Assembly (NCBI GenBank): GCA_030390025.1
Contig: CM059431.1
Coordinates: 143,532,001-143,596,000, forward strand
Direction: 5' to 3'
Length of the DNA stretch: 64,000 nucleotides
Source: Squalus acanthias
Taxonomy: Eukaryota
Shown here: positions 4,181 to 64,000 of the stretch, piece by piece
Layout: the number at the start of each line of letters is the position of its first letter
How positions within the stretch are numbered: position 1 is the stretch's first letter
Made by a program: the position numbers and the translations under genes
The notes under the pieces: model-generated
The model's input: only the letters and a program-made list of their open reading frames with translations
The model's database searches: none
Told to the model about the DNA's origin: nothing

Positions 4181-5691
4181 ACATGAGGAAAAGGCCATGT
4201 TATGGCTGATATAAAATTGATTGGACCGATTCCCTCTGGCAGTAAAACAGACAAACTAAGAACACAGAAGCTTGTTGTACTGAAAGAAGCGTCATTTCAT
4301 TTAGGGGAATTTTGAATCCCAATTTACTGATTATCAGAAAGATATTTATAATTTTCAAAACTATTTTGTAGGAAACTCGTATCCAAATGAAACGTTGGAG
4401 TTTAGTAATTCTAACTGTTGAAATGAACTCTCAATCTTTTCTTCCCTAACGTAATACTGAGTGGAGTCGGCGGTACTTCAGTTTCTGATTCTGATCGGTT
4501 ATCTGATGAGATTGTTATTTAAAAATAATATAAGTGTAAAATTACTGAAAGCTGATCGCATTTTCTGAAACACAACAGCAGGATGTTTAGGGGAAGAAAA
4601 GGACACTTTTGTCCAAACAAGTCTGTACCTGTTAGAGATGAACCCACCTGCCCTCCTCTCAGTGTATCCACAGAAACACAACCAATTGTCTCTTTCCACT
4701 ATTACACTGCCCCTTAGTGTCCTCCCTGGTAACTGGTCTCCCGCTCTATTACCCTTTGGTGAAAATGATTACACTGATTTCCCTTCTTAGTCCTGGCTTC
4801 CTAGTGTCAGTTTTCTCTTAAATAATTGTGTTAATTGTGAATCTCATACCGGCATTAATTATGTGACTTCCGTCAGAAATTCTGATCAGTAATTCAGTCT
4901 CCAAAGTCTCTTATTCCAAACTGTACAAATCTAACACCGCACCCTTTCCTCTGCCTTAATTGTGCCATAATCATCTTATTTCTCTCTGCACCTTCAGCAT
5001 TGCAATAACATTCTTCCTGTGGATATGTGATTAGAAGCACACACAATACCTGCCGAGGATTTCGCACACTAACTGTGGAACTTCTGCCCATTCTCAACGT
5101 GTGCCTCTCCCAGCGCACACTACCCCAGATAATCTGCTCAAGGGTTGATATGCTAACAGTGCAAGTTCTGTCCATTCACAGTCTGTCCCTCTCACAGTAC
5201 CCACACTAACCCAGATAACATGCCCAATACCTGATACAGTAACAGTGGACCTTCTGCACCTTGTCCCTCTCGGTGAGCAATCAATCCCGTTATCCACTGC
5301 GGCAGAAGGGAAGCACCACTGACAGTTTCAGAGATTGATCCACTAGAACTTCTACTGTCGTATAATCAGAATCATGTGTGCATTTATAATGAGATGTCTA
5401 TAGCACAGGGCAGGCCGGATAGTATTAAACATCAGAGGGAAAATATCACCTTCATAGAAATCTCCATGTTCAGTGAATATTAGAATCAAGTCAGGATTTG
5501 AAACTTTTCTCGGCCATTGTTCACTTTCAAATGAGGTATCCATTAACTGATATTTAATTTCTATGCACACCTCTATTGAAGTAGTGAATTAAATCTTGCA
5601 ATATTTTACTGAACATTAAATAGTATTGAGAAGTTGTTTTTTGTCAATACCACTAACATTGATAACCTCTTGCTGCCTGTTAAAATTGAAG

Positions 5692-7465
5692 ATGTTCAAA
5701 AGAGACACAAGGAAACACTCCGGTTACAAACTGAGACAATGAGAGTGAACACTATCCTAATAAAGGAGAAGGTTAAGGTTTTCCAGCTGGTTGATCGATA
5801 CGCTGAAATAACGGTCATTTCTACTGTTCGAGATCGGACACTTGGAGAACATGAATTGCTGGCAAGAGGCCGAGATCATGAAGAGTGGATGCAGAAACAT
5901 CTCCGGGGAGAACTGGAGAAAATACGACCTGATCACTTTTTCCAAAGCAGTTTTTCCTGGACAGGCAAATTGCTCCAGAAAATTAAGGGAGTCTTCTGGC
6001 AGTCCAATTCTGGGAGTTCAGGAGCAGTGAGCGGAGTCCCGGGGATTGGAAAAACAACAATGGTACAAAAGATTGTTTATGACTGGGCAACTGGGAAAAT
6101 ATACCCACATTTTCAATTTGTTTTCAGCTTTAAATTCCGGGATTTGAACGCCATTAACTGTAGAATAAACCTGAGGAATCTGATACTGGATCTGTATCCT
6201 TACTTTGGGAATGTGCTGGGAGAGCTCTGGAAGAACCCAGAGGGATTGCTGTTTATATTCGATGGTTTGGATGAATTCAAGGAAAAGATCGATTTTGCTG
6301 ACAGTCGGAGAAATACAGAACCTCAGAACATGTGCACAGATCCGGAATGCTGGTGTGAAGTGTCTGACATTGTGTACAGTTTAATACAGCACAAGCTGCT
6401 CCCAGGATGTTCAGTGCTAGTGACCAGTCGCCCCACTGCATTACATTTATTGGAAAAGGCTGAGATCAGTGTCTGGGCTGAAATCCTGGGATTTGTTGGT
6501 GAAGAACGGGAAGAATATTTCAACAAGTTTTTTGAAGAAAAGACGGTGGCAGCAGCTGTTTTGAAACACGTGGAGGAGAACGAGATCCTGTACACCATGT
6601 GCTACAACCCTTCCTACTGCTGGATCCTCGGTCTGTCACTGGGTCCCTTCTTTACACAAAGAGACAGGAATCAGCAGCGAGTTCCCAAGACCATCACCCA
6701 ACTATATTCCTACTATACCTACAACATTCTGAAAAACCATGGCCGAGAGATTGAAAGCCCCCGTGATGTGTTACTGAAGCTTGGTGAGATGGCCTTCACA
6801 GGAGTCTCTGAAAAGAAGATTTTGTTCAGAAATGGAGATTTGATTAAGTATAATCTGCAACCTTCCCAGTTCCTGTCTGGGTTCATGATGGAACCTTTGG
6901 AGAGAGATGATTCTGCCCAGAGCATGATGTACACATTCCCGCACCTCACCATCCAAGAGTTTGTAGCCGCACTCACACAATTTCTGACTCCCGATCCCGG
7001 GGACATTCGGAAACTCCTCAGTGAAGCCCACAGCAAGGAAGATGGGCGATTTCAGATATTTCTCCGTTTTGTTGCTGGTCTCTCCTCCCCACAGGCAGCT
7101 CGGCCCCTGGAGGTGTTTCTGGGTCCATTTCTTCATCAAACCACCTGCCGAGTGATTGACTGGGTGAAGGAGAAGGTTGAAGAACAGATTGGGAACACAG
7201 AGAGTGAAACTCGTAAAAGGGACATTCTGGACACATTCCACTACCTGTTTGAGTCTCAGAATAACGCACTGGCTCGGGCCACAGTGGGATCTGTGGAAAC
7301 ACTTACATTTAGTGGATTGCGACTGACACCGATTGACTGTGCGGTCCTGTCTCATGTCATTGAACTCTGTGATACAATAAAAAACCTCGATCTCGGAGGC
7401 TGCTCCATTCAATGTGAAGGACTCCAGCGGCTGGGATCCGTACTGCACAAATGCCGGGTATTGAG
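5692..7465 (+). CDS. NLR gene NACHT exon (NLRP3/NLRC3-like NACHT-LRR protein)
   Basis: Open frame with Walker A GVPGIGKT, Walker B LLFIFDGLDE, sensor-1 VLVTSRP, winged-helix FPHLTIQEF and a first LRR. Acceptor gaag| at 5691, donor |gtaact at 7466. Confidence 0.95.
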
Positions 7466-8089
7466 GTAACTGTCTATTTGTCTCTAACTGTTGGGCGAAT
7501 TGTAGAACAGTCACAGATTGTGTTGTTGCTCCGTAATGAAGGGAAACAAACAGTTCCGTTAAACCAGAGAGAAGCAGATTCTATACTTATATGACCAAAT
7601 ATAAGAGGATAGATTAGTAATTCCCTAAGGACTGGAGAATCTAAAATGTATCCTTGTGAACAAGTAGGGATTGTACAGCCTTTATCGGATCAGCAAATAC
7701 AGGTCACTGAGAGTCTGACAATTTAATTACAATATATCTTATTTAATAAGGCGGGGCAACGGGATATAAGCAGAAAATATAATCCGGCAGTAAAGGTAAA
7801 ATGAATTAAAAATATTTCCTCCTCCACCATTGCAACTAGAAACAGTACAGAAACCCGAGTTTAAATCACTAACTGTTCGATATTTGCTCCAATACCGTGC
7901 AGGCTGTGTCTTGTCGAGGAGGAGGTTTCCTGGATTGGGAATATTGGGGAATAGGGAATTCTTTCAACTTTAAATATTTACAATTATACACAGTCCTGAA
8001 CATTGAGTAAAGATTGATATTCAAGATCTTAATTCTGCCGTTAAAAAAGTTCGACTCTAACGTGTTGTGGGGTATTAGACCCGGAGTAC

Positions 8090-14559: not shown

Positions 14560-15224
14560 TTGGGACCCACCCAACCTTGTGGCCCCCATCCTGGGACACA
14601 GCTATCCAAATACCACACCACCCAGAAACCCACCCACCCAGCGACCAACCAATCGAGACACCAACCACCCTGGGACCCACTAACAAAAATATATCCCACC
14701 CAGTAACCCACCCACCCAGCGACCCACCAATCGAGACACCAACCCCCCTGGGACCCACCAACACAAATACTATCCCACCCAGGGACCCACTTACCCAGGT
14801 TCCTACCAATCGAGACACCATCCACCCTGGGACCAACCATCACAAATACTATCCCACCCAGTACCCCACCCACCCAGTGACCAATCAATCGAGACACCAA
14901 ACACCATGGGACCCACCAACACAAATACTATCCCACCCACCCAGGGACCAACCAATCGAGAGACCACACAGCCTGGCACCAACCAACAGAAATACTATTC
15001 CACACAGGGACCCACTTACCCAGGGTCCAAGCAATCGAGACACAACCCACCCAGAGACCCAAGGACCCACGAAACGAGACACACCCAACACTGGAAGCCA
15101 CCAACCTAGACACCATCCCAACCCACAGACCCACCCATCCAACACTTCCACACACAGAGACCACCCCACATATAGACTAACCACCCGAGACACACCCCAA
15201 AGTGGGAACTACCCACCAAGCCAC
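14560..15224. repeat. Degenerate C/A-rich tandem repeat, left part; resumes at 22029-22285 after the provirus
   Basis: Recurring GGGACCCACC and CCAATCGAGACACC motifs on both sides of the LTR element. Confidence 0.8.
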
Positions 15225-16244
15225 TGCAGGATCGCAAATTAGACCTGTGTAACTAAACCTATATCCCCTAGTCTTTAAATATATATTAACCAAGGCTGTA
15301 GGGCAGTAATATTAGAAATCATGTTTAAAGGATAGTTAATTCACTTATACAGAGATATCAATACGTACATATAGCTTTTAGATAGTTGCAAAGCATGATG
15401 GACTATTTGGTTCATTATATTAACCCTTTTAAATAATACTGAAAGAAGTGTTGCTCCCTGCAGCGAGATTGTCGGAGTCATAGCTTATTTTCTATGCATT
15501 TTAGAAGGCCATTATCAGTGCTACAGACGCAGTGTTTATACGTAGGTGGCCTTTGGAAGAGATAAGGGAAACTGAACTGTACAGGGAGTTGACCATTTCT
15601 CTCTTGGTCTCAAATACCTTATCTCCCTTTGGAGCGACCTTGTTTATCATAATAAGCTTTTCTCGAGAATTAATTATGTATTGATAAGGAACAACAACAT
15701 GGGAACAGGAAGTTAGGAGTGGTATGACCTTGTTTACGAGACAACATGGATCCTGGTAAATTCCGCCACTAGAGACTAGAAGATCCCAGGTATGACAGTT
15801 GAGTGATTGATCATTAACCAATAACGGAGTAATGGTATTGATGATGTTTGTAGGTGCATTCCCACTTCTGTAACCTGTGGGTGTTGCCCATTGAAATGCT
15901 TATATGAAGTTTTTCCTTTAAGAGTTGGTTTCGAGTCTGAGGAGATCAAACTCTCTCCCTTTTTACACAAAGCCTTCTGCCTAGTTTCTAATAAACTTTT
16001 ACTTTGTCTTCAGTTCCGTCTCCGTCTGATTTTGCTCCAAAATTCGATGTAACAGTAAGGCCCGTTGGTGAGTAATTGGGAAGCCGGGAGCAGGGGTGAC
16101 CTCTTAGGACTTTAATTAGTCCCGGTGGTCTCGAATTGGGCCCCTGTGTAAAACCCGGAGCAGGGGTGACCTCTTAGGACTTTAATTAGTCCCGGTGGAC
16201 TCGAATTGGGCCCCTGTGAAAAAGTCCTAAATTCTGATCTAACA
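15225..16244 (+). repeat. 5' LTR (1020 bp)
   Basis: TGCAGGATC...GATCTAACA, AATAAA at 15990-15995. About 55 substitutions and 2 indels versus the 3' LTR by hand count. Confidence 0.95.
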
Positions 16245-16246
16245 GT

Positions 16247-16264
16247 TGGTGTCAGAAGTGGGAT
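16247..16264 (+). promoter_or_regulatory. Primer binding site, tRNA-Leu
   Basis: TGGTGTCAGAAGTGGGAT, 2 nt after the LTR end. It is the reverse complement of the 3' 18 nt (ATCCCACTTCTGACACCA) of vertebrate tRNA-Leu(CAG/CAA). Confidence 0.92.
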
Positions 16265-16814
16265 ACTGGACTGGAATGTTGGGTGCGGTGGTTGAGGGTC
16301 ACTCCTTAAGAGAATTGTTGGAGTTGGGCTTTTCCTGGACTCCCTGTTGCATATCCCTCTTGGCGAGTCGCGCTCGCAAAATAAGCACCAGCCAGGCGCA
16401 GTATTAAATTATCCACGTAGTTAAATTACTCCTCACGGAGACTCACGGGTTGACGGAATTGACTAGACCTAACTGTGTGTATACCGATTTAAAGTATAAG
16501 TGTTTGTCATTGTTCTGATTGAGTGTGTGTCATTGTTGAGAGTCACGGGTGATCGACACGAACAAGAGTGGTTGGTTGTCTATCTCAAACACCTAGCCTG
16601 AGCCTGAATTAAGAGGACGTAGTCCCACGTGATGGCCAGGATCAAGTTGGTGTAGGGAACTTCGAACACACCACAGGATCGTGATCCCGTGACGAGTAAG
16701 AGTAAAATAAAAGATAGAGCATAAGGTGATACGTTTGTGCCGATTAAAGTATAAGATTAGACTAAAGTAAGTTAAAGTATAAGATAAAGCATAAGAATAT
16801 ATGTGATTATAAGT

Positions 16815-17511
16815 ATGAGTGACGTCGGGAAACCCCTTTCACCAGAAGTTCCGGCTATGGCCACCATTGTCACTGTTGTTAAGCGGGTCCAAGAGGTTGA
16901 TCTGAAATACCAGAGTGAGATGATTAAAAATGAGTGGAAAGAAATAAGTCCAGTAGCTGATCAAATAAAGTGGTGGGCGGAACTAAAGGATACGAAGCAA
17001 GCCAACTACGGGACGGTTTTGTGTGCCAGTTGGTTGAGCCAGATGGGACCCATAATTGTGGACTAAATGGGAAAACCGTCCCCACTACAGGACTTTTTGA
17101 GACCTGTTCAGGAGGCAAAGGTCCGAGTCCGAAGTCTCTTGCATCTGGGGCCGGTAGGGACTGAGGATCTAGAGGATTTAAGGAATTGGGGGGGAATTTT
17201 TGGTGCATTAGAAGTCCAACAAAATTAAGACAAAACCAGTAGCGACGGCCCAGGAGAACCGTCTCTGTTATCGGTGTAGCTCACCTGACCACTTTTCCAA
17301 AGATTGCCCGGTGACGGGTAAACCATGTACCAACTGCGGTCGCTTCGGACACACTCGGGCTGCTTGTTTCAAAAAGGGTGGGGGAAGGGAGGAACAGGGA
17401 CCCCGAAAACTTGGATCACAGGGACCACAAGGGGAGGGGGGGCTGTCTGACCGAGAGTTGGAAGGACTACGGGCCCTCCTCCTCCCGTCACCAGCTCCTC
17501 CACACGATTAG
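16815..17511 (+). pseudogene. gag: Short retroviral gag remnant with two CCHC zinc knuckles
   Basis: CYRCSSPDHFSKDC (from 17266) and CTNCGRFGHTRAAC both fit CX2CX4HX4C. Internal stops (17064, 17209) and a frameshift near the G-run at ~17190. Ends TAG 17509-17511. Confidence 0.8.
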
Positions 17512-18180
17512 GATACCTCGGTCTCCTCCGTCGGAGGACCGGGGGCCACCCGACCGTGTCTAAATGTGCTGTTAGGAGGCCGGCAGTATTGTGCTTTTAT
17601 AGACACGGTAGCCTCGGTGTCGATAACCGACTCGAAATTCCCTACAATAGATCAAACCATCCAAGTAAGCGGGGTCAGTGGAGAAAGTGTGATCCTCCAT
17701 CAGAGTGTTCCGTTTGCACTGCAATTATCCCCAGAAAGCCGAACCTGGTGGGTCACTCTTTGGATAGGTCCCAACAGTGAGGGCCTCATTTTAGGTATGG
17801 ATGTCTTGCACCAGATAGAGGCAAACCTGCTCTTAAGTGACCACCTATTGGAAATAGTAGGACCAGATGGTGGGAGATTTCCCTTCCTGGAAAATCAGGC
17901 CAATAAATTTCGGGTTAAATATCTACAGGAGGCACAGGATGATAAAAGAATGGAGGGAGTTTGGAAAATACCACCTAGTGTGGGACAGTGCGTGATGGTT
18001 CAGCGATCGGTTCGAGGTACGTTTGAGCCACGGTGGGATGAACCTTTCCAGATCCTCCTTAGTACAGGAACCTCCGTTTGTCTGCAAGAAAAAATAGATC
18101 TAAGGTGGAGACACTGGAGCCAGACTAAGCCGGTGATGGCGCCCGGGGAAGGAATTTCCACCGACCCTCACGACCCCTAG
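17512..18180 (+). pseudogene. pol: Retroviral aspartic protease fused to integrase C-terminal domain (internally deleted pol)
   Basis: In frame with gag. AFIDTVASVS (D-T-G changed to D-T-V at 17602-17610) and ILGMDVL, then FEPRWDEPFQILLSTGTSVCL..WRHWSQTKP, similar to the MLV-type IN C-terminus. Confidence 0.85.
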
Positions 18181-18278
18181 GGCTGAGGAGTAGAAAAAAA
18201 ACCCTGCAGACTGGATTCTGTCATTTTCAGTGTACTGTCACTTTCAAAGCCTGTGCTTTCCTTCTCAAGGTCACAGGC

Positions 18279-18282
<4 letters not shown>

Positions 18283-18311
<29 letters not shown>
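18283..18311. repeat. (CT)n microsatellite inside provirus
   Basis: About 14 CT units between the pol remnant and env. Confidence 0.95.
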
Positions 18312-18315
<4 letters not shown>

Positions 18316-18619
18316 GAAGAGTGTTGTTGCTACATAAAAAAAAATCTGATTGAAGTGAATGCAATGTATGTGCCTGTCAGCTGAGGCAATGAATTATCAA
18401 ATGATTATTAATAATGCGAGTAACTTTATTTTCCTCCAAGTGTTTGATTAGGACCAAGTCCGGAAAATTACATAGAGTCTTCGAGTTGTTATTTGCCTTG
18501 TGTTTTTCTTACAGACGTTCCACCCGGCCTCATTACCGTTACCACTTCTAGGGATACCGACCCTCCAACAACGCAAAGTATTCTCCCATTTGACTTGAAG
18601 TGGTATTATATTAAACACT

Positions 18620-20663
18620 ATGGGATGGCTCTTATTAAGAATAATAGGGCTGCTGGTGGTCAAACAGACCACAGCCGCCACAGAACTGGAGTGGTGTGGG
18701 AATGATTTCGGCACCCATACATGTTACATGGATGACCGCCGAATAGGAGTATGTGTAGATTACGAGACCGAGGAAAAAATGGCTCAATGCTGTCAGAATA
18801 ACCAGCGCATTTGGCACCCCTCATGTACGCCCATTTGAGTCAAGTGCCAACAATATGGTAAAGGTATGGTACCGAATGGCCCTCCACCCCCTATAATTCA
18901 CTGTTATTGGGGTCAAGATCCACCCCAAGCCATTAACCCGACACCGGCCTACAGGCCACTGATTTGCCCATTTATGAAGGAAGGACCCGTTAGTGGATTG
19001 GTGTTCACCCAAACCGGAAACATATTGTATGACAACATACGACACGATTGAGTTCCAGTAGTCTTGAACCTGACCGACACCGCCCTACCCGTATGGTGCT
19101 CGTCACAAACCCAGCAATTGTATCAGCATCTCATAACACAAGTATTGAGACAAGGCGCGATCCGCAGCGGAGGTGGATACAATAAAAGGAACAGGCGGGT
19201 ATGGCGACGGAAAAGGGATTTACTAAATGATGCAGCGACGGTTTTTAATACAGGCGCGTCAGTGGTTAATACCATCGATCTGGCTGCATTAGACCAGAAG
19301 GTTCGACATTTGAGCTCACGGCTCAAAGCCATTTTACAAGAACAGAATAAGAATGAGGGTCAAGAATTAAGGGAGGATCAGATATTAACCTTCTACCTCC
19401 AGGACATAGCCACTGTACTAGAAGCACACGCGTAGACAATAAATAAGATTGTCAAAGAAGAACACAATTTCTCACAGCAGGCAGCGGCGAACGATGCCTG
19501 CAGCACCTATGGTAACTGGAGAGTTGAGCAGACCGAAGAGAATTTAGACCAAATACAGGGAGGGGAGGTACCCTTGTGGATTACCAACCAGCAATTAAAA
19601 GGGACTCTAACCCACGAGCATGCTGGGAAGGGTACACCCAAACGCCTTCTGGATAGCCTTAACATAACGACCTGTCAATTTAGGACCATGATACGGGTAT
19701 ACCCCACCCAAGTAGAATGTAAGCAAAAGGGGTGCGGGCTCCTGGGCTTAGTGCTGGTAATTCCGCTACTGACCCCGGAGACTCAAGCACGCGAGGTATA
19801 CCAAGTACAAAATATTGGTGTAATAAAAGATGGCATGCTCATATCTCACCATAATATGTTACCTTACACAGTGATGATAAATGGAAATCTAGTGGGTACA
19901 AGACTAGAAGGATGTACTACCCGACATGCCATCATCATGTGCCCGCATGCAATCAACCACAGCCCACAGAGCCGGTGCGGTTTTAATACCACAGACCTGG
20001 AGATTAACTGCACCATGGAAGCATTGGATTCCACCGCCAAACCCACCCAGGTGGCATACGCCGGTAGGGATGAATATCGTGTTACGACCAACTTGAATAC
20101 GTTATATTACGGCAATCTAACATGTGATATTCCCCGCCCAGAGTTCTGCTTCACCCCAGAAATTATCGTACGAATTGGACATGAGGAACTGGTGGGCATA
20201 CATCAGTATGATACCACTTCTCTCCAAGTATCCGAGGACATTAAGAATGACTTGCGAAACTACATCAACACTTTGGGTACCCGATACCCCACTGCCCGAA
20301 CATTTAAAGCAGTTACGGGGAAGGATTCAACATTCCTAACGGGTGTATTATACCCTGCAACAACGTAGCAAGAATCTGAAGAAAGATATGGACGCGATCA
20401 AGGTGACCACATGGTGGGATGACATTTGAGACTGAGGACTAAATTTACAGATCCATCCGTGGATCAGGCTAATTTCACACATATTGGTCGTGGTGCAGTT
20501 AATACTGGTTATCGGTCTGTTATGTATGGCATGTAAGAAATGTAAGAGGATTCGGGCAAAACGAAAGGCAAAACAAATGATTAAAGCTGTTAGTGCATGC
20601 ACTGCCCCTCCCACGCGTAGCTGGGACGACTTTGGACGTTTGTTAGAAAAATCAAGTGTATGA
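18620..20663 (+). pseudogene. env: Envelope/class I fusion glycoprotein, ~680 codons, interrupted
   Basis: Four track ORFs share one frame, split by single stops (18836, 19049, 19433). Signal-like N-terminus, RRKR at 19205-19216, fusion-peptide/heptad segment and Cys-rich ectodomain. Frameshift near 20275, then TTWWDDI*D*G, TM LISHILVVVQLILVIGLLCMAC and a basic tail. Confidence 0.88.
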
Positions 20664-20985
20664 ATACTGAAGAAATGGTATAATGAATCGGGGATTGCAT
20701 AACTATTAACTTTACTCATCTGATGCATACCTGGTGCCCAGACGGGTGGCCACCCCGACAGGAGTCACACCAGACCATATACAACAGATGGGCGGCCTAC
20801 CTGGATTAACCAAAGGCCTAAAAAGGGGGGAGGGAATTCAGGAAAACTTCATCATTCATGCAATTTGAGCTGGGGAAAACCTATAAGTGGTTCTGCAATA
20901 TATATATCCATCAGTTTATCATATTAACGTAGTTGTAGAGAGAGCACATTTCTCAACCCCGCTTCAAGTATCCTTTCCGGGGGTT

Positions 20986-20997
20986 GAAAGGGGGGAC
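20986..20997 (+). promoter_or_regulatory. Polypurine tract
   Basis: GAAAGGGGGGAC directly upstream of the 3' LTR. Confidence 0.85.
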
Positions 20998-22028
20998 AGT
21001 AGGATCGCAAATTAGGCCTGTGAAACTAAACCTATATCCCCTAGTCTTTAAATATATATTAACCAAGGCTGTAGGGCAGTAATATTAGAAATCATGTTTA
21101 AAGGATAGTTAGTTCACTTACAGAGAGATATCAATACGTACATATAGCTTTTAGATAGTTGCAAAGCATGGTGGACTATTTGCTTCATTATATTAACCGT
21201 TTTAAATAATGCTGAAAGAAGTGTTGCTCCCTGCAGCCAGATTGTCGGAGTCATAGTTTATTTTCTATGCATTTTAGAAGGCCATTATCAGTGCTACAGA
21301 AGCAGTGTTTATACGTAGGTGGCCTTTGGAAGAGATAAGGGAAACTGAACTGTACAGGGAGTAGACCATTTCTCTCTTCGTCTCAAACACATCATCTCCC
21401 TTTGGAGCGGACCTTGTTTATCATAATAAGCTTTTCTCGAGAATTAATGACGTATTGGTAAGGAACAACAGCATGGGAACAGGAAGATACTAGTGGTATG
21501 ACCTTGTTTACGAGACAACATGGAGCCTGGTAAATTACGCCCCTAGAGACTAGAAGACCCCATGTATGAAAGTTGAGTGATTGATCATTAACCAATAACG
21601 GAGTAATGGTATTGATGATGTTTGTAGGTGCATGCCCACTTTTGTAAACTGTGGGTGTTGCCCATTGAAAGGTATATCAATGCTTGTATGTAGTTTTTCC
21701 TTTGAGAGTTGGGTTCGATTCTGAGGAGATCAACCTCTCTCCCTTTGTGCACAAAGCCTTCTGGCTAGTTTCTAATAAACTTTTACTTTGTCTTCAGTTC
21801 CGTCTCCGTCTGGTTTTTCTCCAAAATTCGATGTAACAGTGAGGCCCGTTGGTGAGTAATTGGGATGCCGGGAGCAGGGGTGACCTCTTAGGACTTTAAT
21901 TAGTCCCGGTGGACTCGAATTGGGCAACTGTTTAAAACCCGGAGCAAGGGTGACCTCTTAGGACTTTAATTAGTCCCGGTGGACTCGAATTGGGCCCCTG
22001 TGAAATAGTCCCAAATTCTGATCTAACA
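20998..22028 (+). repeat. 3' LTR (1031 bp)
   Basis: AGTAGGATC...GATCTAACA, a direct repeat of 15225-16244. Confidence 0.95.
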
Positions 22029-22654
22029 ACACCATCCCACCGAGAGACCCACCCACCCAGCGACCCACCAACCGAGCCACACCCCATATTGGACAGACCC
22101 ATCCTACGCCAACCCAGCAAGAGACCACCCCACACTGGGACAGACCCACCTCGAAACCATACCACCCAGAGTCCACCCCACCTAAAGACCCACAAACCGA
22201 GACACACCCCACACTGGGTCCCAGACCCCGTCCCACCCAATGGCCCACCAAACGAGACACACCACACAGTGGGACCCACCCACGCAGGTGAACAGGTTGT
22301 AGACTGAAGGCTGGGACTCCTCCCCTGAGCCTTTGACATGTTGGTTTTTCGCTCTTGCACGCTCTGTGTTTCAGCCCATTCTCATGTTAATCCGGATAAT
22401 GTTGTCCAGGACCGGACTGCTTTGTCCAGGTACATTCCATAAACATGTTTGTTGATTTGAAAACTTAATATTTGTTGAGAATTTGGCTGCAGTTTTATAT
22501 AGTCCTAAACACTGAACCCTCTCGCAGGCCCTCTTCAGGGCTGGACCAAGAAGAGCACCCGCTGAAACAGATCACTTCTACTCAGAGCTCACACCACACC
22601 CCACAGACAGGGCTTGAAGAAGCCAGTGTGACGCAGGACGGACTCCTTCCGCAT

Positions 22655-29070: not shown

Positions 29071-29971
29071 TTATTTAGCCAATATCAGAATCAATGTCCA
29101 AGGAGATTTCTCCACATTCCTCAGCTCTTCTCTGAATTTAGTTTGTGTAGCTGCATAAATACACTTGTTTGTGCAGGAACTCAAATACATGAGCAGATAT
29201 CCGGTTTCTGTGGCGATGTCGGCAGGAGATGTATAATCGCCTCGGCAATGCGCACTGTTTATCAGTCTGATAGTTAAAAAACTTACGACAGCTGTCAGCC
29301 TCAATACTATAAAACTGCCCGATACAGTGAACAGTAAAGTGATGGATTTCCCTCTATTCTCCATCTCTGGATCGCTCTGATTCTCACTGCTGTGACCCCT
29401 TTTGCCCCAGCGGGCAATACTGGCCTCAAAAATACGTCTGTCTGTCAAACAATTAAACAGTAATATCAAAGCAAGAGGAATCCACATCGTTGAAATATCT
29501 TGTAACCGGCAGAACCCGACACCTGCAGGTGATGAAAAATAGTCCAGTCCGGAGTAACAACCCCAATGAATATTGTTAATGTTTCGTTCAGGTTTATAGA
29601 CAATCAAATCTGGAATGCTTTGTAAATAGATCAGGACAGAAACCGTTTTTATGGCCACAGCCGCAGTTCTAACTCTCCAATAACTTGTTTTAAATTTCTG
29701 ACAACACATGGCTAGAAATCGGTCAAAGGTGAAAAAGATTGTAAACCACACCGACATATCCAGGCTGGTAGAATGGATGTAAATAATTTTCTTACAAACG
29801 GCAGTGTAGGACAGGAAGGAATGTGGAAAGTGATTATGCAAATGTGATACACTATTACATTGAGGATCATGACCAGTAGATCTGCTGTTGCCATGGCCAC
29901 CATGGAGACAGAGATACACTTGGAAAGGCCGCAGTTTCCTCTGGAGAGAATCACCATTGTCAGTAGGTTCG
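29071..29971 (-). pseudogene. GPR139-like class A GPCR, copy A, frameshifted
   Basis: ANLLTMVILSRGNCGLSKCIS..MATADLL lies in one frame and FTFDRFLAMCC...TNKCIYAATQTKFREEL in another (shift near 29845). Acceptor reads cagag| versus tacag| in copy B. Confidence 0.88.
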
Positions 29972-31571
29972 CTCTGAGAAAGAGAGACAAGAGGTCAGTA
30001 ACGGGGACACTCAGATAAATCTCACAGCTTATTGTGGGGAAATGTTGAGATGTGTTCCTATTATTTTTTATATCGGTGAGCGTTGTCGACATTTTGTTCA
30101 AAATAAACGCATCATTCTACACTCACTATAGAGGGACGGAGAATGACCATCCTTCCAGCATACTTCAGTCAGGCGTTGTCCAGGCGGCGCGGGGAGGTGG
30201 GTCGCTCGGATTCAGTCTCGGGAATGGACACGGAGAGCGATCCCCACCACCACAGACACCCAGGCACTGATATAGGAGGCTATTAAATTTGTGAGATAAT
30301 GTAAAACCGGCGACATTGGATCAGCCGTCCGTCATACATCTCTCCGATTGTCATTTCAATCACTATCGCCCCTGACACTAGACTGAGTCTGCATTCCCAC
30401 TCTAGCTGTGCGGTCCAGGTCAAACCGAAGTACCTCGCAGGGACGGTACAGTTACAGATAAAAGCCGCTTGAAGCGAAACCTTGGATGGTTCTGTAACTT
30501 GTTCATATTCGAGAGACAATAAAGAAGCGGATTCCCTTACATACATCCAAACACACATTCCATTGCAGTGTGGGGCGCTGAAACCATCCCACCATGAGGC
30601 TGGGACCATGTGATGCACCGAGCCAATTTGATGAGTTACTACAGCGGCCCCAGGGAGCAAGCGATGGAATTTTACATTTAATTTCATCGGTTTATTTGAC
30701 GAGGGGGATCTCGGGAGCGGCATCCGATGTCAGCTGTATTCAATAGAATTTACAAACAATTACTGGAAAGATATGAATTCACAGTTAATATTCAGCTGTG
30801 ACACAAAACATTATAACCACAAACCGCGACCGCTGCTGCAGACCAGGCGATCACAGGATGGTGAAAATAACAACCATCGCAAAGAAATGTTGGGACACCT
30901 GATCAGTGAACTCCCGGTAAACTAGGGGAGTGAGTAGGAGCTGGAAATCCAAATAGAGAAATACTACTGATTAAAAAGGATTAGATTCCTGAACTTACTG
31001 TTCATAGAGTTAAACCCATGGGGCTGAGGGCTCAGGAGTAAAACTGTGAGAAAGGCCTTGATGGTTGTGACTGCTCCCGTGAGACGACGCACTGGATCCC
31101 AGCAGAGGATCGGGCTGTAGCTCCCACAGACCATGGAGGGAGTGCAAGGTACTGAAGGATTCTTTCCCGGCTCTTTAAAGAGAGGAAACATTCCGGACAG
31201 ACCATTCCGGACACAAAGCGATAGTCCCAGAAATCCCCGACCCATGGGCACAGCTCTTGGAATCTGTCCACAGCTGAATGGTAGCTTGAGGTCCAGTGTC
31301 GATTGATGGAAATTCAGCCCCAGCATCAAAGGGTCTCAGATCCTCTTCGCCGAATTCACTGATTACCGGCCTCTCTGAGCAAAGCCGAGCCGCTCCCGCC
31401 ATGGCCAGTGATTGCGAGAGGGGAATTTTGGCTTTTACAACCCGGAGCAAAGGGCTTTCACCCACTGGTGGACTTTCTGAGTTCACTTGGTTCCAGTCAT
31501 TCTGCAATAATCTGAATCAACCCAGCATCTCCCGGGGTGTCATTTTCAAACTCTAACACTGTGCTGGGACG

Positions 31572-38481: not shown

Positions 38482-39389
38482 TTAATTTTTCATTTTTTTA
38501 ATCAACATCAGAATAAATGTCCAAGGAGATTTCACCACCTTCTTCAGCTCTTCCCTGAATTTCGTTTGTGTAGCTGCATAAATACACGTGTTTGTACAGG
38601 AACACAAATACATGAGTAGATATCCGGTTTCAGTGGCGATGAATGCTGGAGATGTATAATCGGGTCGGTGATTCACGGCCAGGGAGTTAAATACAAAACT
38701 CACAGCGGATGTCAGCCACAACAATACAAAACTGCCCGATACAGTGAACAGTAAAATGATGGATTTCCTTCTGTTCTCCATCTCTGGATCGCTCTGATTC
38801 TCACCGCTGTGACCTCGGAGTCCCCTGCGGGCTCTACTGGCCACTAAAATACGCCTGACTGCCAAACAATTAAAAAGTAATATTAAAAGAAAAGGAAGAT
38901 ATGGGTTTAAAATGTTTTGTAAGCGGAAGTAAGCTACACCTGCAGGCGATGAATAAAATGCCGCACTGGGGCGGAAACCCCAGGGAACATTGTTGATTAT
39001 TTGTTTGTGTTCAAAGGCAAACCAATAGGGGATGTTCTCTAAATAAACCAGGACAGAGACCGTTGTTATAACCGCGGCCGCAGTTCTCACTGTGCAATAC
39101 TTTGTTTTAAACTTCTGACAACATATAGCTACAAATCGGTCAAATGTGAAGGAGACGGTAAACCACACCGACATATCCAGGTTGGTACAACACATGTACA
39201 TCATGAGCTTACAAACGGCAGTGTAGGACAGGAATGAATATGGGAAGTGTTTACTCAAAATGTGATATAGGATTACATTGATGATCATGACCAATAGATC
39301 TGCTGTTGCCATGGCCACCATGTAGACAGAGATACATTTGGAAAGGCCGCATTTTCCTCTGGAGAGAATCACCATTGTCAATAGGTTCG
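38482..39389 (-). CDS. GPR139-like class A GPCR, copy B, main coding exon (first exon not located)
   Basis: Open ~302 codons after acceptor cttacag|. MATADLL (TM2), FTFDRF (DRY-like), ENRRKSIILLFTVSGSF (TM6), TNTCIY (NPxxY-like). Confidence 0.9.
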
Positions 39390-39850
39390 CTGTAAGAAAG
39401 AGGGACAAGAGTAAGTAATGGGGACACTCGGATAAATCTTACAGCGTATTGTGGGGAGATGAACCGATGTGTTCCTACTTAGGGTTATGCACCCCGATTC
39501 TTTTCATAATATAGGCGAGCGTTGACAATATATTTTTCAAACGAAAGTAATCATTATACTCTCAATATCTAGGGAGTGAGAATGCGCCGATCTTCCAGCA
39601 CACTTCAGTCAGACTGTGTCAAGCCGGTGGGTGGGGGTTGGTGCTGGGAAGGTCACTCGTATTCAGTATCGGCAATGGTATCGGATAGCGACCCCCAACA
39701 GCACCGACAGACAGACACTGATGGCTCAACGGAGGGGAATTTTTACATTGTGCTACAGTGTGAAAAGGGGGATCTCGGATCAGCCGTTCATTATCCATCT
39801 CTTCCGAATGAATCGCCATCGCTATCGCCACTGACACTATATTCATGCAT

Positions 39851-53070: not shown

Positions 53071-53854
53071 TATTATGAGGCCTTTTGATAGAGCAAGTAG
53101 GGAGAAAATGTTTTCTCTGCGGAGTGGATCGAAAACCAGAGGTCATAGGTTATAAATAATTGGCAAAAGAACTCGAGGCGGCATTAGGAGAGTTCTTTTC
53201 ACACAGAGGGTTGTTAAGATCTGTAACACATTTTCTGAAAGGATGGTGGAATCAGATTCCATAGAAACATTCAAACGGCAATTGTACATGTATTTGAAGA
53301 GAACTAATTAGCAGGGTTATGGGCTAAATGCTGGGGTTGTGGGACTGAATTCGACAGTTCTTTCAAAGAGCCGGCACAGGCAGGACGGGCCGAATGGCCT
53401 CATTCTGTGCAGTCAGATTGTGTGATCCTAAGATTCAATGATTCTATGACTCCGGCCACTTGTTCATCCCCCTTTCTCTTCACACTACGATTAGTCTGCC
53501 ATAACCTGTGCCTCACTGCCGGGAGTTTCCTTCCCAAATCCTCTCATCTCCTGCTTTAAGATCCTCTTATAACCGTTAGCTTTGAGGAGTCTTTTGATCA
53601 CACATCTTAATGGATCCTTCTTTGGATTTGCCTTCCATTATTTTGATCACACCTCTATGAAGCGCATTGGGAGATCTCTAACAAGTGGGGAGGGGCCCAG
53701 GGTTTATCAAGCTGTGTGGAACACTTTACTGAACAAGTGTGTTTGTGTCTGTTTGTTACATTAATGAGGGCATCTGGCGCTACTCTCCCTGACACTGGGG
53801 AACAGGTTCTGTTTCTGTAATTATCAATACTCTGATCAACGCTAGACAGAGCTT

Positions 53855-53926
53855 TGAAACCGACGTGATTTGAACTCGCAGCCTTCTGATCGGGAATCAG
53901 ACGCGCTGTCATTGCGCCACGAGTTC
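53855..53926 (-). tRNA. tRNA-Trp-derived gene or pseudogene with anticodon CCC
   Basis: 72 nt GAACTCGTGGCGCAATGACAGCGCGTCTGATTCCCGATCAGAAGGCTGCGAGTTCAAATCACGTCGGTTTCA. Body matches vertebrate tRNA-Trp, anticodon stem TCTGA/TCAGA intact, mismatches in acceptor and T stems. Confidence 0.8.
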
Positions 53927-54286
53927 AACGTTTGCCACAGCGCAGGAATGGTTATATATATCAATGTTTCCCAAACACCGTTTAATTGTTACCCAGAATC
54001 AGCACATGACAGGAAAATAAACTAGGAAACTGCTCAAAATACACAACAGGTCATGCAACTTATTAGAACTGCAAACAAGGCCGTGTGAAACTATAAACCT
54101 TGGGTGTGTATATAGAATCATAGAAACTCACAGGACAGGAGGAGGACATTCGGCCCGTCGTGCCTGTGCTGGTTTAGAAAGACCAGCCGTGCTCAGTCCT
54201 ACTGCCCCGCTTTTTGTCCCTAACCCTGTAAGATCCTCAGGAGAATGCGCCAGTTTCAACGATTGATGCAGCCATTGGTTCAGTGC

Positions 54287-57532: not shown

Positions 57533-58800
57533 TAAGAACATAAGAAATAGGAGCAGGAGTAGGCCAATCGGCCCCTCGAGCATGCTCCGCCATTCAATAA
57601 GATCATGGCTGATCTGATCCTAACCGCCAATCTACTATCTATCACAGAACCATCTCCTGCATCTAACAGAATTGCACACACGAAATAGGAGCAGAATCAG
57701 GCTACACAGTCCCTGGGCCCGCTCCACTACCCACAGGGCCATGACCGATCCGAACCTAGACTCATGTCCAAATTCCTGCCCGCTCCCCGTAACCCTTAAT
57801 GCCCTTTACTTCTAGGAAACTGTCTATTTCTGTTTTAAATTTAATTAATGTTGTAGCTTCTACAGCTTTTTGTGGCAGCATATTCCATGGACCTACCACC
57901 CTCTGAGTGAAGTAGGTCCTCCTCATCTCAGTTTTGAAAGAGCAGCCCCTTATTCTAAGACTATGTCCCCTAGTTCTCGTCTCACCCGTCATCGGGAACA
58001 TCCTCCCCGCATCCACCCGATCCAACCCCTTCACAATCTTATATGTTTCAATAAGATCGCCTCTCATTCTTCTGAACTCCAATGAGTAGAGTCCCAATCT
58101 ACACAACCTCTCCTCATATGACCACCCCCTCATCCCCGGGATTAACCGAGTGAACCTTTTTTGCACTGCCTCGAGAGCAAGGATGTCTTTCCTTAAGTAA
58201 GGACACCAAAACTGTATGCAGTATTCCAGGTGCGGTCTCACCAATACCTTGTACAACTGAAGCAATACCTCCCTATTTTTATATTCTATCCCCCTAGCAA
58301 TGAAAGCCAACATTCCATTTGCCTTCTTAATCACTTGCTGCACCTGCATACTAACCTTTTGAGTTTCGTGCACCAGGACCCCCAGATCCCTTTGCACTTC
58401 AGTACTCTCCAGTTTCTTGCCATTAAGATAATAAATTGCTCTAGGATTTTTCCTGCCAAAGTGCATCACCTCACACTTTCCAGTGTTGTATTCCATCTGC
58501 CAAATCTCTGCCCACTTACTTAGCCTGTCTATGTCCCCTTGCAGGTTTTTTATGTCCTCCTCACTCACTACTTTCCCTCCCATCTTTGTATCATCTGCAA
58601 ATTTTGATATGTTACACTTGGTCCCTTCCTCCAAATCGTTAATATAGATTGTGAAGAGTTGGGGACCCAGCACTGACCCCTGTGGAACACCACTAGTTAC
58701 TGATTGCCAGTCTGAGAATGAACCATTTATCCCAACTCTTTGCTTTCTGTTAGATAGCCAATCCTCTATCCATGCCAGAATATTACCCCCAATCCCGTGA
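57533..58800 (-). mobile_element. Young CR1 LINE, 5'-truncated, uninterrupted RT C-terminal ORF
   Basis: Open ~345 codons with SGVPQGSVLGPQLF and KFADDTK, plus a (TTCTTATG) tail. Confidence 0.95.
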
Positions 58801-58879
58801 TTCCATGAACTCGTCCTCCAGAGTACCTTTGCCAATTTGATTTGTCCAGTCTACATGAAGAAGAATGCTCCAGTGTGAA

Positions 58880-61972: not shown

Positions 61973-64000
61973 AGAGTAGAAATAGGAGGATATTTCCAAT
62001 GAATGCGTGGCTAGAGGAATGGTGCAAGGGGGAGGGATTCAAATTCCTTGGACATTGGAACCGGTTCTGGGGGAGGTGGTACCAGTACAAACGGGACGGT
62101 CTGCACCTGGGCAGGGCCGGGACCGATGTCCTAGGGGGAGTGTTTGCTAGTGCTGTTGGGGAGGGTTTAAACTAATGTGGCAGGGGGTTGGGAACCTGAG
62201 CAGGGAGACAGAGGATAGGGAAACAAGGATACAAACTAAAGACAGGAAGGAGAAAAACAAAAGTAGAAGGCAAAGAATTCAACGGTTTAAATCAAACATG
62301 GTCACAGTAAATAATAATTCATATAGGTCTGAGAGCGTTAAAAAAACAAGCCTGAAGGCTTTGTGTCTTAATGCAAGGAGCATTCGGAACAAGGTGGATG
62401 AATTAGCCGTGCAAATAGAGGTAAATGAATACGATTTGATTGGGATTACAGAAGCATGGCTCCAGGGTGGCCAGCCTGGTAACTCAACATCCAGGGTAAT
62501 TCAATATTTAGGAAAGATAGGCAAAAAAGAAAGGGAGGTGGGGTAGCATTGCTGGTTAAAGAGGGGATTAACACAATTGAAAGGAAGGATATTAGCTCTG
62601 ATGATGCGGAATCTGTATGTGTAGAACTGAGAAGTAACAAGGGGCAGAAAACGTTAGTGGGAGTGGTATATAGACCTCCAAACAGTAATACGGAGATTGG
62701 GGACGGCATTAAAAGGGAAATTAGAGACGCATGCAGTAAGGGCACAGCAGTCATCATGGGTGACTTTAATTTACATATAGATTGGGCTAACCAAATTAGT
62801 AAAAATACTGTGGAGGAGGAATTCCTAGAATGTTTACGAGATGGTTTTCTGGAACAATATGTCGAGGAACCAACCAGAGATCAGGCCATCTTAGACTGGG
62901 TATTATGTAACGAGAAAGGATTAATTAGCAATCTTGTTGTACGAGGCCCCTTGGGTCAGAGTGATCATAATATGATAGAATTCTTCATTAGGATGGAGAG
63001 TGAAGTAGTTGAATCAGAGACTAGGGTCCTAAATTTAAATAAAGGAAACTATGATGGTATGAGGCGTGAATTGGGTAGGATTCATTGGGGAATGTCACTC
63101 AAGGGGTTGACGGTGTATAGGCAATGGCAAACATTGAAAGACTGCATGGATGAACTACAGAATTTGTTCATCCCAGTGTGGCATAAGAATAAAACAAAAA
63201 GGGTGACTCAACCGTGGCTAACAAGGGAAATTAGGGATAGCATAAGAACCAAGGAGAGGGCATATAAATTGGCCAGAAAAAGCGGTAGCCCTGAGGATTG
63301 GGAGCCGTTTAGGATTGAACAAAGGAGGACAAGGGGATTAATGAAGAAGGGGAAAATAGAATATGAAAGTAAGCTTGCTGGGAACATAAAAACTGACTGT
63401 AAGAGCATTTATAGATATGTGAAGAGAAAAAGATTAGTGAAATCAAGTGTAGGTCCCTTGCAGTCAGAAGCGGGGGAAGTTATAATGGGGAACAAAGAAA
63501 TGGCAGCCCAATTAAATGCATATTTTGGGTCGTCTTCACAAAGGAGGACACAAATAACCTCCCAGAGATGTTGGAGAACATACGGTCTGATGAAAGGGAG
63601 GAACTGAAAGAAATCAGTATTTGCAGGGAAAGGGTGTTAGGGAAATTGACGGTATTGAAGGCCGATTAATCCCCAGGGCCTGATAATCTACATCCTAGGG
63701 TACTTAAGGAAGTAGCCCTAGAAATAGTAGATGCATTGCTGATCATCTTCCAACATTCGATGGAATCTGGAACAGTACCCATGGATTGGAGGGTAGCTAA
63801 TGTTACCCCACTATTCAAAAAGGGTGGTAGAGAGAAAGCGGGGAATTACAGACCGGTAAGCCTGACATCGGTAGTGGGGAAAATGCTAGAGTCCATTATA
63901 AAGGATGTAATAGCTGAGCACTTGAGAAACAGTGACAGGATCGGACAAAGTCAACATGGATTTACAAAAGGTAAATCGTGCTTGACTAATCTACTGGAAT
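61973..64000 (+). mobile_element. CR1 LINE: ORF1 C-terminus (SGNH esterase-like) and ORF2 (APE endonuclease, start of RT), runs off the window
   Basis: ORF1 ..MNAWLEEWC..RDGLHL..GEGLN* ends at 62175. ORF2 has LNARSIRNK, IGITEAWL, VYRPP, MGDFN and SDHN, with frameshifts near 62475 and 63530. Confidence 0.93.

What the first reader, a model, noticed from the sequence alone, without database searches (positions are those of the whole stretch)
15225..22028. RT-less, env-carrying non-autonomous retrovirus: protease joined in frame to the integrase C-terminal domain
Seen: all cis signals are present (LTRs, PBS, PPT, poly(A) signal). The pol region is only 222 codons and passes with no stop or frameshift from protease (FIDTVAS, ILGMDVL) into VGQCVMV..EPRWDEPFQILLSTGTSV..WRHWSQTKP, with the junction at ~17880-17940. 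Known: this resembles the MLV-type IN C-terminus (EPRWKGPY.VLLTTPTA..W.H). RT, RNase H and the IN core are absent. Gag is also only ~230 codons, too short for a full MA-CA-NC. Inference: compact gag and pol next to a full-length env suggest a streamlined satellite-like element that was mobilised in trans and may have supplied Env to a helper.
Basis: partly seen in the sequence, partly recalled or inferred. Interest (0 to 1): 0.78.

Follow-up and report, generated by a model that had tools for sequence, protein, structure and literature searches.

The report
Twice-deleted shark provirus keeping env
This is a decayed retrovirus copy, likely from a shark-type genome, that lacks its capsid and most of its polymerase but still carries an envelope gene; it is likely one of several differently deleted relatives copied by intact helper viruses, a known kind of freeloading element.

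Summary
LTRs (94.8% alike), a tRNA-Leu primer site, a purine tract and a stop-free 222-codon frame that joins protease to the integrase tail are all there. Contigs from public runs place the join at a graph fork at 17891/17892.

The interpretation needs trimming.
- Gag is not compact. A shark relative carries a capsid where this copy jumps, out of frame, from its N-terminal domain to the zinc knuckles, so this is a second deletion.
- The fusion protein is unlikely to be made or to work: gag stops upstream and the protease motif is degenerate in this copy.
- Sister copies in other organisms carry different joins, and none of the 5 checked is in frame.
- Env here is broken, and env deletions also occur in the family.

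This copy's exact join was seen in one contig of one organism, at a depth hinting at a few copies. Replication in this exact form is therefore likely but not shown.

Best reading: one dead member of a swarm of internally deleted, helper-dependent derivatives kept by cis signals. Env supply to a helper is untested. New member of a known kind; interest 0.3.

The parts
15221..15224 (+). left copy of a likely 4-base target-site duplication (right copy 22029-22032, one mismatch), inside a 79-base tandem repeat
15225..16244 (+). 5' LTR (TG...CA), with AATAAA at 15990 and a 70-base tandem duplication at 16087-16223
16247..16264 (+). primer-binding site complementary to tRNA-Leu
   Evidence: 18 of 18 bases match a tRNA-Leu(CAA) antisense probe, PMC7997516
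16815..17228 (+). 5' part of gag (N-terminal, likely matrix-like domain); internal stop at 17064, frame ends at 17226-17228
   Evidence: 65% identical to residues 1-123 of Heptranchias perlo gene model P0029
17226..17255 (+). gag deletion join: capsid absent, N-terminal domain meets nucleocapsid out of frame (exact base not fixed)
   Evidence: P0029 continues for 197 residues absent from the window; its residues 165-320 score 0.91 with Gag p24/p30 clusters
17212..17511 (+). nucleocapsid with two CCHC knuckles, ending in TAG
   Evidence: zf-CCHC E 1.3e-9, two stretches
17509..17544 (+). gag TAG in frame with pol, followed by a predicted stem-loop (likely read-through signal)
   Evidence: frame; fold, no shuffle control; read-through role inferred from gamma/epsilon retroviruses (recalled)
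17512..17891 (+). protease; active-site motif degenerate in this copy
   Evidence: RVP E 7.8e-7; 41% to P0002 up to 17850; most sister contigs differ from this copy at that codon
17891..17892 (+). pol deletion join (RT, tether, RNase H and integrase zinc-finger and core missing)
   Evidence: contig fork at 17892 in run X2; joints from other copies arrive at the same base in X6, X7, X8
17892..18180 (+). end of the integrase core-to-CTD linker, plus the C-terminal domain
18181..18619 (+). 440-base spacer with candidate env splice acceptors (AG ending at 18230 and 18514) and (CT)15
   Evidence: pyrimidine-tract scan; function inferred
18620..20663 (+). env: hydrophobic N-terminus, RRKR site at 19205-19216, long cysteine-rich post-cleavage part, transmembrane stretch near 20469-20525; broken by stops at 18836, 19049, 19433 and a frameshift near 20265-20290
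   Evidence: 61-67% identical to the env-derived part of H. perlo gene model P0022
20986..20995 (+). polypurine tract
20998..22028 (+). 3' LTR

Best explanation
This is a decayed provirus that lacks capsid, RT, RNase H and the integrase core, likely through two internal deletions from a full-length cartilaginous-fish retrovirus, and it likely spread as a helper-dependent element carried only by its cis signals. Steps: (1) shown: both gaps exist relative to relatives; (2) inferred: the gaps arose as template jumps during reverse transcription of RNA packaged by an intact relative; (3) inferred: LTRs, primer site, leader with the gag start, and purine tract let such RNAs be packaged, copied and integrated by a helper's Gag and Pol; (4) shown in part: the family holds several different deletion forms in several organisms; (5) inferred: the protease-integrase-tail fusion is a by-product (an in-frame join is a 1-in-3 chance) and would not be translated, because gag terminates upstream; (6) shown: two of the env stop codons, the env frameshift region and the protease motif differ from most sister contigs, so this copy likely decayed after insertion.
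For: Relatives carry what is missing: protease runs into RT, tether and RNase H in P0002; the integrase tail follows a core in P0014 and P0030; a capsid follows the gag N-terminus in P0029. All 4 runs (organisms A-D) have contigs in 30 of 30 bins of the internal region, with many contigs per site. A second protease-to-integrase join (17732 to 17892, 70 other letters between) is in X7 and X8; X6 shows 17712 to 17892, probably the same form; X9 has a loose end at 17732. Other joins: 16919-17325 and 16964-17303 (X8, X9), and 16987-18118 (X8 depth 27, X9 depth 23, against 2-4 for their faintest listed contigs). None of these 5 joins is in frame (for 3 of them the letters between are unknown, so this assumes none). 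This copy's join is in X2 record 6 (192 bases, 1 difference, depth 43.8), which ends 30 bases past 17892 where the shared contig of depth 129.6 starts. Its one difference appears to be 17787, where all 4 X2 contigs covering that base differ from the window, so it likely represents other copies; the faintest long X2 contigs have depth 8-9.
Against: Record 6 has 30 letters on the right of the join, one short of the tool's bridging rule. It was found in 1 of the 4 runs, and the tool warns that contig depth is no copy number. One or two differences in about 190 bases also fit an allele, an orthologue or a segmental duplicate. Presence of a join in several organisms can be one old inherited insertion. 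No flanks of other carriers and no RT-bearing copy with this LTR could be seen, since no genome is held. The gag join has lower support (X2 record 1, depth 19.2) and little or no cover in X7, X8 and X9, so it may be younger or private.
Confidence: 0.6

Rival explanations
1. A full-length provirus inserted here and lost both segments afterwards by ordinary genomic deletion; any further carriers are segmental duplicates or orthologues.
For: LTR divergence of 0.054 gives ample time (12-123 million years with the two rates used in PMC4422223). Only one contig in one organism carries the pol join, and one carries the gag join. The out-of-frame gag join fits decay.
Against: The pol-join contig has about 2.3 times the depth of the gag-join contig and about 5 times that of the faintest long contigs, and it lacks a letter private to the window. 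Other RT-less joins recur in several organisms.
Confidence: 0.25
2. A selected, streamlined satellite: the in-frame protease-CTD product helps its own RNA in cis (as reported for the IAP 1-delta-1 fusion), and/or the lineage keeps Env to complement an env-less helper.
For: The join is in frame and keeps the whole protease and the whole CTD. A bat gene model (P0004, 215 aa) has the same two-domain layout (28% over 213 aa). The 3' ends of the listed gag-pol deletions (17303-18118) all lie upstream of the candidate env acceptors. Env cover is not lower than gag-pol cover in the 4 runs. The env breaks checked are private to this copy.
Against: Gag stops before the read-through codon, and the X2 contig over the gag join has no gap against the window, so it shares the frame break. 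None of 5 sister joins is in frame. Env deletions exist too (18754-19169, 18975-19560, 19721-20431, 20270-20400). P0004 is an unverified gene model that may be spliced. In X7, the only possible RNA run laid, no contig covers this copy's join.
Confidence: 0.12
3. The join is an assembly artefact of the window.
For: The window is rich in repeats.
Against: A contig from a public run matches across 17730-17921 with 1 difference, and another across the gag join with 2. The window has no N.
Confidence: 0.03

Closest known systems
Mouse IAP 1-delta-1 elements (PMC6466679, passages)
   Same: Internal gag-pol deletion, non-autonomous, copied with Gag and Pol supplied in trans.
   Different: IAP 1-delta-1 keeps one in-frame Gag-Pol fusion that acts in cis, and most IAPs lack env. 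Here there are two deletions, the gag join is out of frame, and env is kept.
Bovine ERVK[2-1-LTR] D-type elements and similar pairs named there: MusD/ETn, KoRV/recKoRV (PMC10924933, passages)
   Same: About 6.8-kb defective elements that keep LTRs plus portions of gag and env, have no intact ORFs, and are mobilised in trans.
   Different: There the centre is swapped for a foreign segment; here it appears simply deleted. Mobilisation is demonstrated in cattle and only inferred here.
pol-deleted alpharetroviral ERVs of Lagopus and Tympanuchus (PMC10820513, passages); chicken EAV-HP as env donor of ALV-J (PMC11835228 and PMC4607243, passages)
   Same: ERVs lacking pol while env sequences remain; an endogenous env passing to another virus is documented.
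   Different: Other virus group and host. The EAV-HP case is recombination, not protein supply. That most EAV-HP copies lack pol is recalled, not seen in those passages.
Lokiretroviruses (PMC7947760, main text parts 1-3 of 4) and zebrafish Bhikhari (bioRxiv 10.1101/2024.03.25.586437, passages)
   Same: Env layout with signal peptide, RxKR site and long ectodomain; non-autonomous, pol-less members exist.
   Different: No PF00523 match for this Env. The paper's supplement lists 0 of 3 chondrichthyan genomes as carriers. Bhikhari keeps gag only.
Snakehead-retrovirus-related ERVs (clade Huo; CmiERV lineage I of elephant shark) (PMC6001957 passages; PMC4422223 part 1 of 2)
   Same: Reported in cartilaginous fish. 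The nearest RT-bearing relative found (P0002) has tether plus RNase H and is closer to MLV-type RT (E 1e-72) than to foamy (1e-50) or Ty3 (5e-33) RT.
   Different: Placement needs an RT tree, which this copy cannot give.

Membership tests
Endogenous retrovirus (proviral anatomy) | Two LTRs, primer site, purine tract | tested here: met
Endogenous retrovirus (proviral anatomy) | gag-pro-pol-env order with an env downstream of integrase | tested here: met
   pol and gag only as remnants
Endogenous retrovirus (proviral anatomy) | Retroviral RT with dual RNase H | tested here: inconclusive
   absent from this copy; present in the nearest protease relative P0002, 41% identical
Non-autonomous ERV subfamily (IAP 1-delta-1 kind) | Enzymes for replication missing, cis signals kept | tested here: met
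Non-autonomous ERV subfamily (IAP 1-delta-1 kind) | Same deletion join in several independent insertions | tested here: inconclusive
   one contig in 1 of 4 runs; depth hints at a few copies; no flanks seen
Non-autonomous ERV subfamily (IAP 1-delta-1 kind) | Autonomous partner with the same LTR and primer site | not testable with these tools
   no genome held; capsid-bearing relative known only as gene model P0029
Non-autonomous ERV subfamily (IAP 1-delta-1 kind) | One open Gag-Pol fusion frame | tested here: not met
   gag join is out of frame here and in the X2 contig
Lokiretrovirus | RT groups with the loki clade | not testable with these tools
   no RT in the element; no reference set on hand
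Lokiretrovirus | Env similar to paramyxo/pneumovirus F (PF00523) | tested here: inconclusive
   no Pfam match at E 0.01, no PDB match, model pLDDT 32, atlas lead only at 0.85 to viral fusion glycoproteins; the layout fits
Gammaretrovirus (MLV type) | Gamma-type Env with CX6CC and immunosuppressive motif (motifs recalled) | tested here: not met
   neither motif in the 582 codons read; long post-cleavage ectodomain
SnRV-related clade Huo | Pol phylogeny with snakehead retrovirus | not testable with these tools
   no RT here; scans for related loci found none

The most novel reading that the evidence does not exclude
A long-lived shark retrovirus lineage split its labour: capsid-less, RT-less elements kept an expressed fusion-type Env under selection and supplied it to enzyme-bearing partners, with an in-frame protease-integrase-tail product aiding their own copying. 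This would reverse the usual drift of ERVs towards env loss, and the bat gene model P0004 would be a convergent case.
Probability: 0.1. Interest if true: 0.72.

Novelty: new member of a known kind. Interest (0 to 1): 0.3.

Why it matters
As read here, it adds a cartilaginous-fish example of deletion derivatives freeloading on an intact retrovirus, with several independent joins shared across organisms, which can date and order the family's decay. It would matter much more if env proved to be under selection in the RT-less lineages, since that would point to two-way complementation between defective proviruses. One genome-wide dN/dS analysis could test this.

Tried and rejected

Protein searches. 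The word-index search with the pol frame found 0 of 180 candidates at near length. The HMMER search gave 20 hits, of which 1 (P0004) covers both domains in one stretch; P0013, P0015 and P0016 are unrelated and were dropped. Related-locus scans found nothing in 4 viral and 2 metagenome scans.

Structure. Single-sequence models of Env (pLDDT 32) and of P0029 (pLDDT 37) were too poor for a fold search and were not used. Pfam and PDB searches did not identify P0029's capsid; only the atlas did. A language-model search of this copy's own gag remnant is missing.

RNA. Rfam found nothing in the element. No RNA holder is on record. X7 is only guessed to be RNA and has no cover at 17750-17873, which is no evidence either way.

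Ambiguous contigs. X2 record 7 and X9 record 30 cross 17892 by only 6 and 10 letters. They may be diverged carriers or breakpoint microhomology and were not counted. What the 70 letters in the sister join encode was not tested by any search. Tables were cut (927 and 143 pieces, 178 and 11 loose ends not shown).

Readings rejected. A Ty3/gypsy element, because relatives have tether plus RNase H and MLV-like RT. A gammaretrovirus, because of the Env type. 'Compact gag', because the capsid is missing.

Literature. Nine searches listed no paper whose title or abstract start describes this family or a protease-CTD fusion ERV; the library lacks most subscription papers. The loki supplement was cut when stored, so the absence of this primer site from it means little. 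PMC5210030 and PMC8672886 (passages) and bioRxiv 10.1101/2023.10.26.564294 (passages) added only background.
Full report
What is there. The element spans 15225-22028 and sits inside a 79-base tandem repeat that continues on both sides. Its LTRs agree at 964 of 1017 aligned positions (K2P 0.054). With the mammalian and the assumed shark rate used in PMC4422223 (part 1 of 2 read) this gives roughly 12 to 123 million years. The primer site matches tRNA-Leu over 18 of 18 bases (PMC7997516, one passage). A purine tract, AATAAA and an imperfect 4-base target-site pair are present. The closest named relatives of gag and env are Heptranchias perlo gene models at 61-70% identity, so the host is likely a cartilaginous fish.

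The pol frame. 17512-18180 is open for 222 codons behind the gag TAG. The first half is a retroviral protease (RVP, E 7.8e-7). The second half is an integrase tail: MLVIN_C at E 5.7e-5, under the family cut-off; PDB 2m9u at E 0.003; and 41% identity over 94 residues to a fish ERV integrase, 64 bits against at most 21.6 in shuffles. Protease homology runs to 17850 and integrase homology starts near 17875. In relatives at least 589 residues of RT to RNase H (P0002) and about 260 of integrase (P0030) lie between these points.

Where the join is and who shares it. In run X2 (organism A) a contig identical to the window but for one letter covers 17730-17921 at depth 43.8. It ends 30 bases past 17892, where a shared contig of depth 129.6 begins, and another contig reaches 17892 with unlike letters before it. 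This is the geometry of a fork in a 31-mer graph (inference), and fixes the join at 17891/17892. The 30 letters on the right are one short of the tool's bridging rule. The single difference appears to be 17787, where all 4 X2 contigs covering that base differ from the window. The faintest long X2 contigs have depth 8-9. Both points hint that a few other copies carry this join, but depth is no copy number, and an allele, orthologue or segmental duplicate is not excluded. X7, X8 and X9 showed no bridging contig among the rows listed. X7 and X8 instead carry another protease-to-integrase join, 17732 to 17892 with 70 other letters between; X6 shows 17712 to 17892 and X9 a loose end at 17732. The tool reports those letters as replaced, not cut out, so neither form derives from the other by a simple deletion. 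Both likely come from a longer parent.

Gag is deleted, not compact. The window matches H. perlo P0029 over residues 1-123 and then leaves it. The relative's next part scores 0.91 with Gag p24/p30 clusters, and 10 of its 10 best family hits agree; Pfam and PDB sequence searches did not see it. The window passes from the N-terminal domain to the zinc knuckles with a change of frame near 17226. One X2 contig (186 bases, 2 differences, no gap, depth 19.2) spans this join; X7, X8 and X9 have little or no cover there. Other gag deletions are 16919-17325, 16964-17303 and 16987-18118 in X8 and X9, with loose ends at 17303 in X2 and X7 and at 17325 in X7. None of the 5 gag and pol joins checked is in frame. 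Two of them may be one form, and three have unknown letters between, so this is modest evidence: chance alone would give it about 13-20% of the time.

Is the fusion meaningful? Probably not. At this copy's break rate (6 breaks in about 910 gag and env codons) a 222-codon frame stays open with probability about 0.23, and a join is in frame one time in three. Gag ends before the read-through codon, so the frame would not be reached by the usual route (inference). The protease active-site motif is degenerate here, while most sister contigs differ from this copy at that codon. On the other side, the join spares both domains whole, and 1 of 20 HMMER hits, a bat gene model (P0004), has the same layout. 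It may be a spliced prediction.

Env. It has a hydrophobic N-terminus, an RRKR site at codons 196-199, a long cysteine-rich ectodomain and a transmembrane stretch, without gamma-type motifs. It has 3 stops and 1 frameshift. Sister contigs in all 4 runs differ from this copy at the stops at 19049 and 19433 and in the frameshift region; the stop at 18836 is not among the rows shown. The decay is therefore largely private to this copy. A paramyxovirus-F-type fold is plausible from the layout but was not shown. Env cover is not lower than gag-pol cover, and one X6 contig links the integrase tail to the env start (18106-18796). Four env deletions are also listed, so deletions do not strictly spare env. 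Nothing here tests supply of Env to a helper.

Mechanism. Most likely (0.6): RNAs of an intact parent were packaged, lost internal stretches by template jumps during reverse transcription, and went on being copied by helpers because LTRs, primer site, leader and purine tract were intact. This copy is one such derivative that later decayed. Rivals: deletion after insertion at this one locus (0.25), a selected satellite with a working fusion or an Env-donor role (0.12), an artefact (0.03).

Comparison. It works like IAP 1-delta-1, bovine ERVK D-type, ETn and recKoRV (PMC6466679 and PMC10924933, passages), but fails the in-frame Gag-Pol fusion feature of IAP 1-delta-1. ERVs lacking pol while env sequences remain are in print for grouse (PMC10820513, passages). 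Clade membership (SnRV-related or loki) cannot be tested without RT; the loki supplement lists 0 of 3 chondrichthyan genomes. Unchecked notes from this scan describe other pol-less, env-bearing proviruses in the same genome, which makes the layout look common there; they are leads, not support. Nine literature searches listed no description of this family, within a library that lacks most subscription papers.

Verdict. Observation confirmed, interpretation partly supported, new member of a known kind, interest 0.3.

Noticed in passing
window 16087-16223 and about 21868-22005: Both LTRs carry a 70-base tandem duplication just before their 3' end, so it predates this insertion.
   Followed up: no
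window 16987-18118 (runs X8, X9): A further reduced form lacking most of gag and nearly all of pol has the highest joint depth in organisms C and D (27 and 23) and may be the more successful derivative there.
   Followed up: partly
window 19194-19955 (runs X6, X8, X9): Long contigs about 80% alike show a second, diverged env lineage in organisms B, C and D.
   Followed up: no
protein P0022 (XP_067837673, Heptranchias perlo): A gene model fuses about 247 residues of this family's env, including the transmembrane part, to a C2H2 zinc-finger array; exonisation or a prediction error.
   Followed up: no
proteins P0004 and P0010 (bat gene models): Gammaretroviral protease or partial Gag joined directly to the integrase tail; either splicing to an acceptor in integrase or true deletions.
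   Followed up: partly
window 5613-7469 +: 618-codon NACHT/NLR exon (NACHT E 1e-35), about 8 kb upstream of the provirus.
   Followed up: no
window 29071-29994 - and 38482-39438 -: Two single-exon rhodopsin-family GPCR frames.
   Followed up: no
window 57762-58850 -, 62483-63607 +, 53854-53927 -: An RT fragment and an endonuclease fragment, likely of LINEs, with several related copies at 23700, 43200, 47100, 52400 and 54500, and a tRNA-Gly-like sequence.
   Followed up: no
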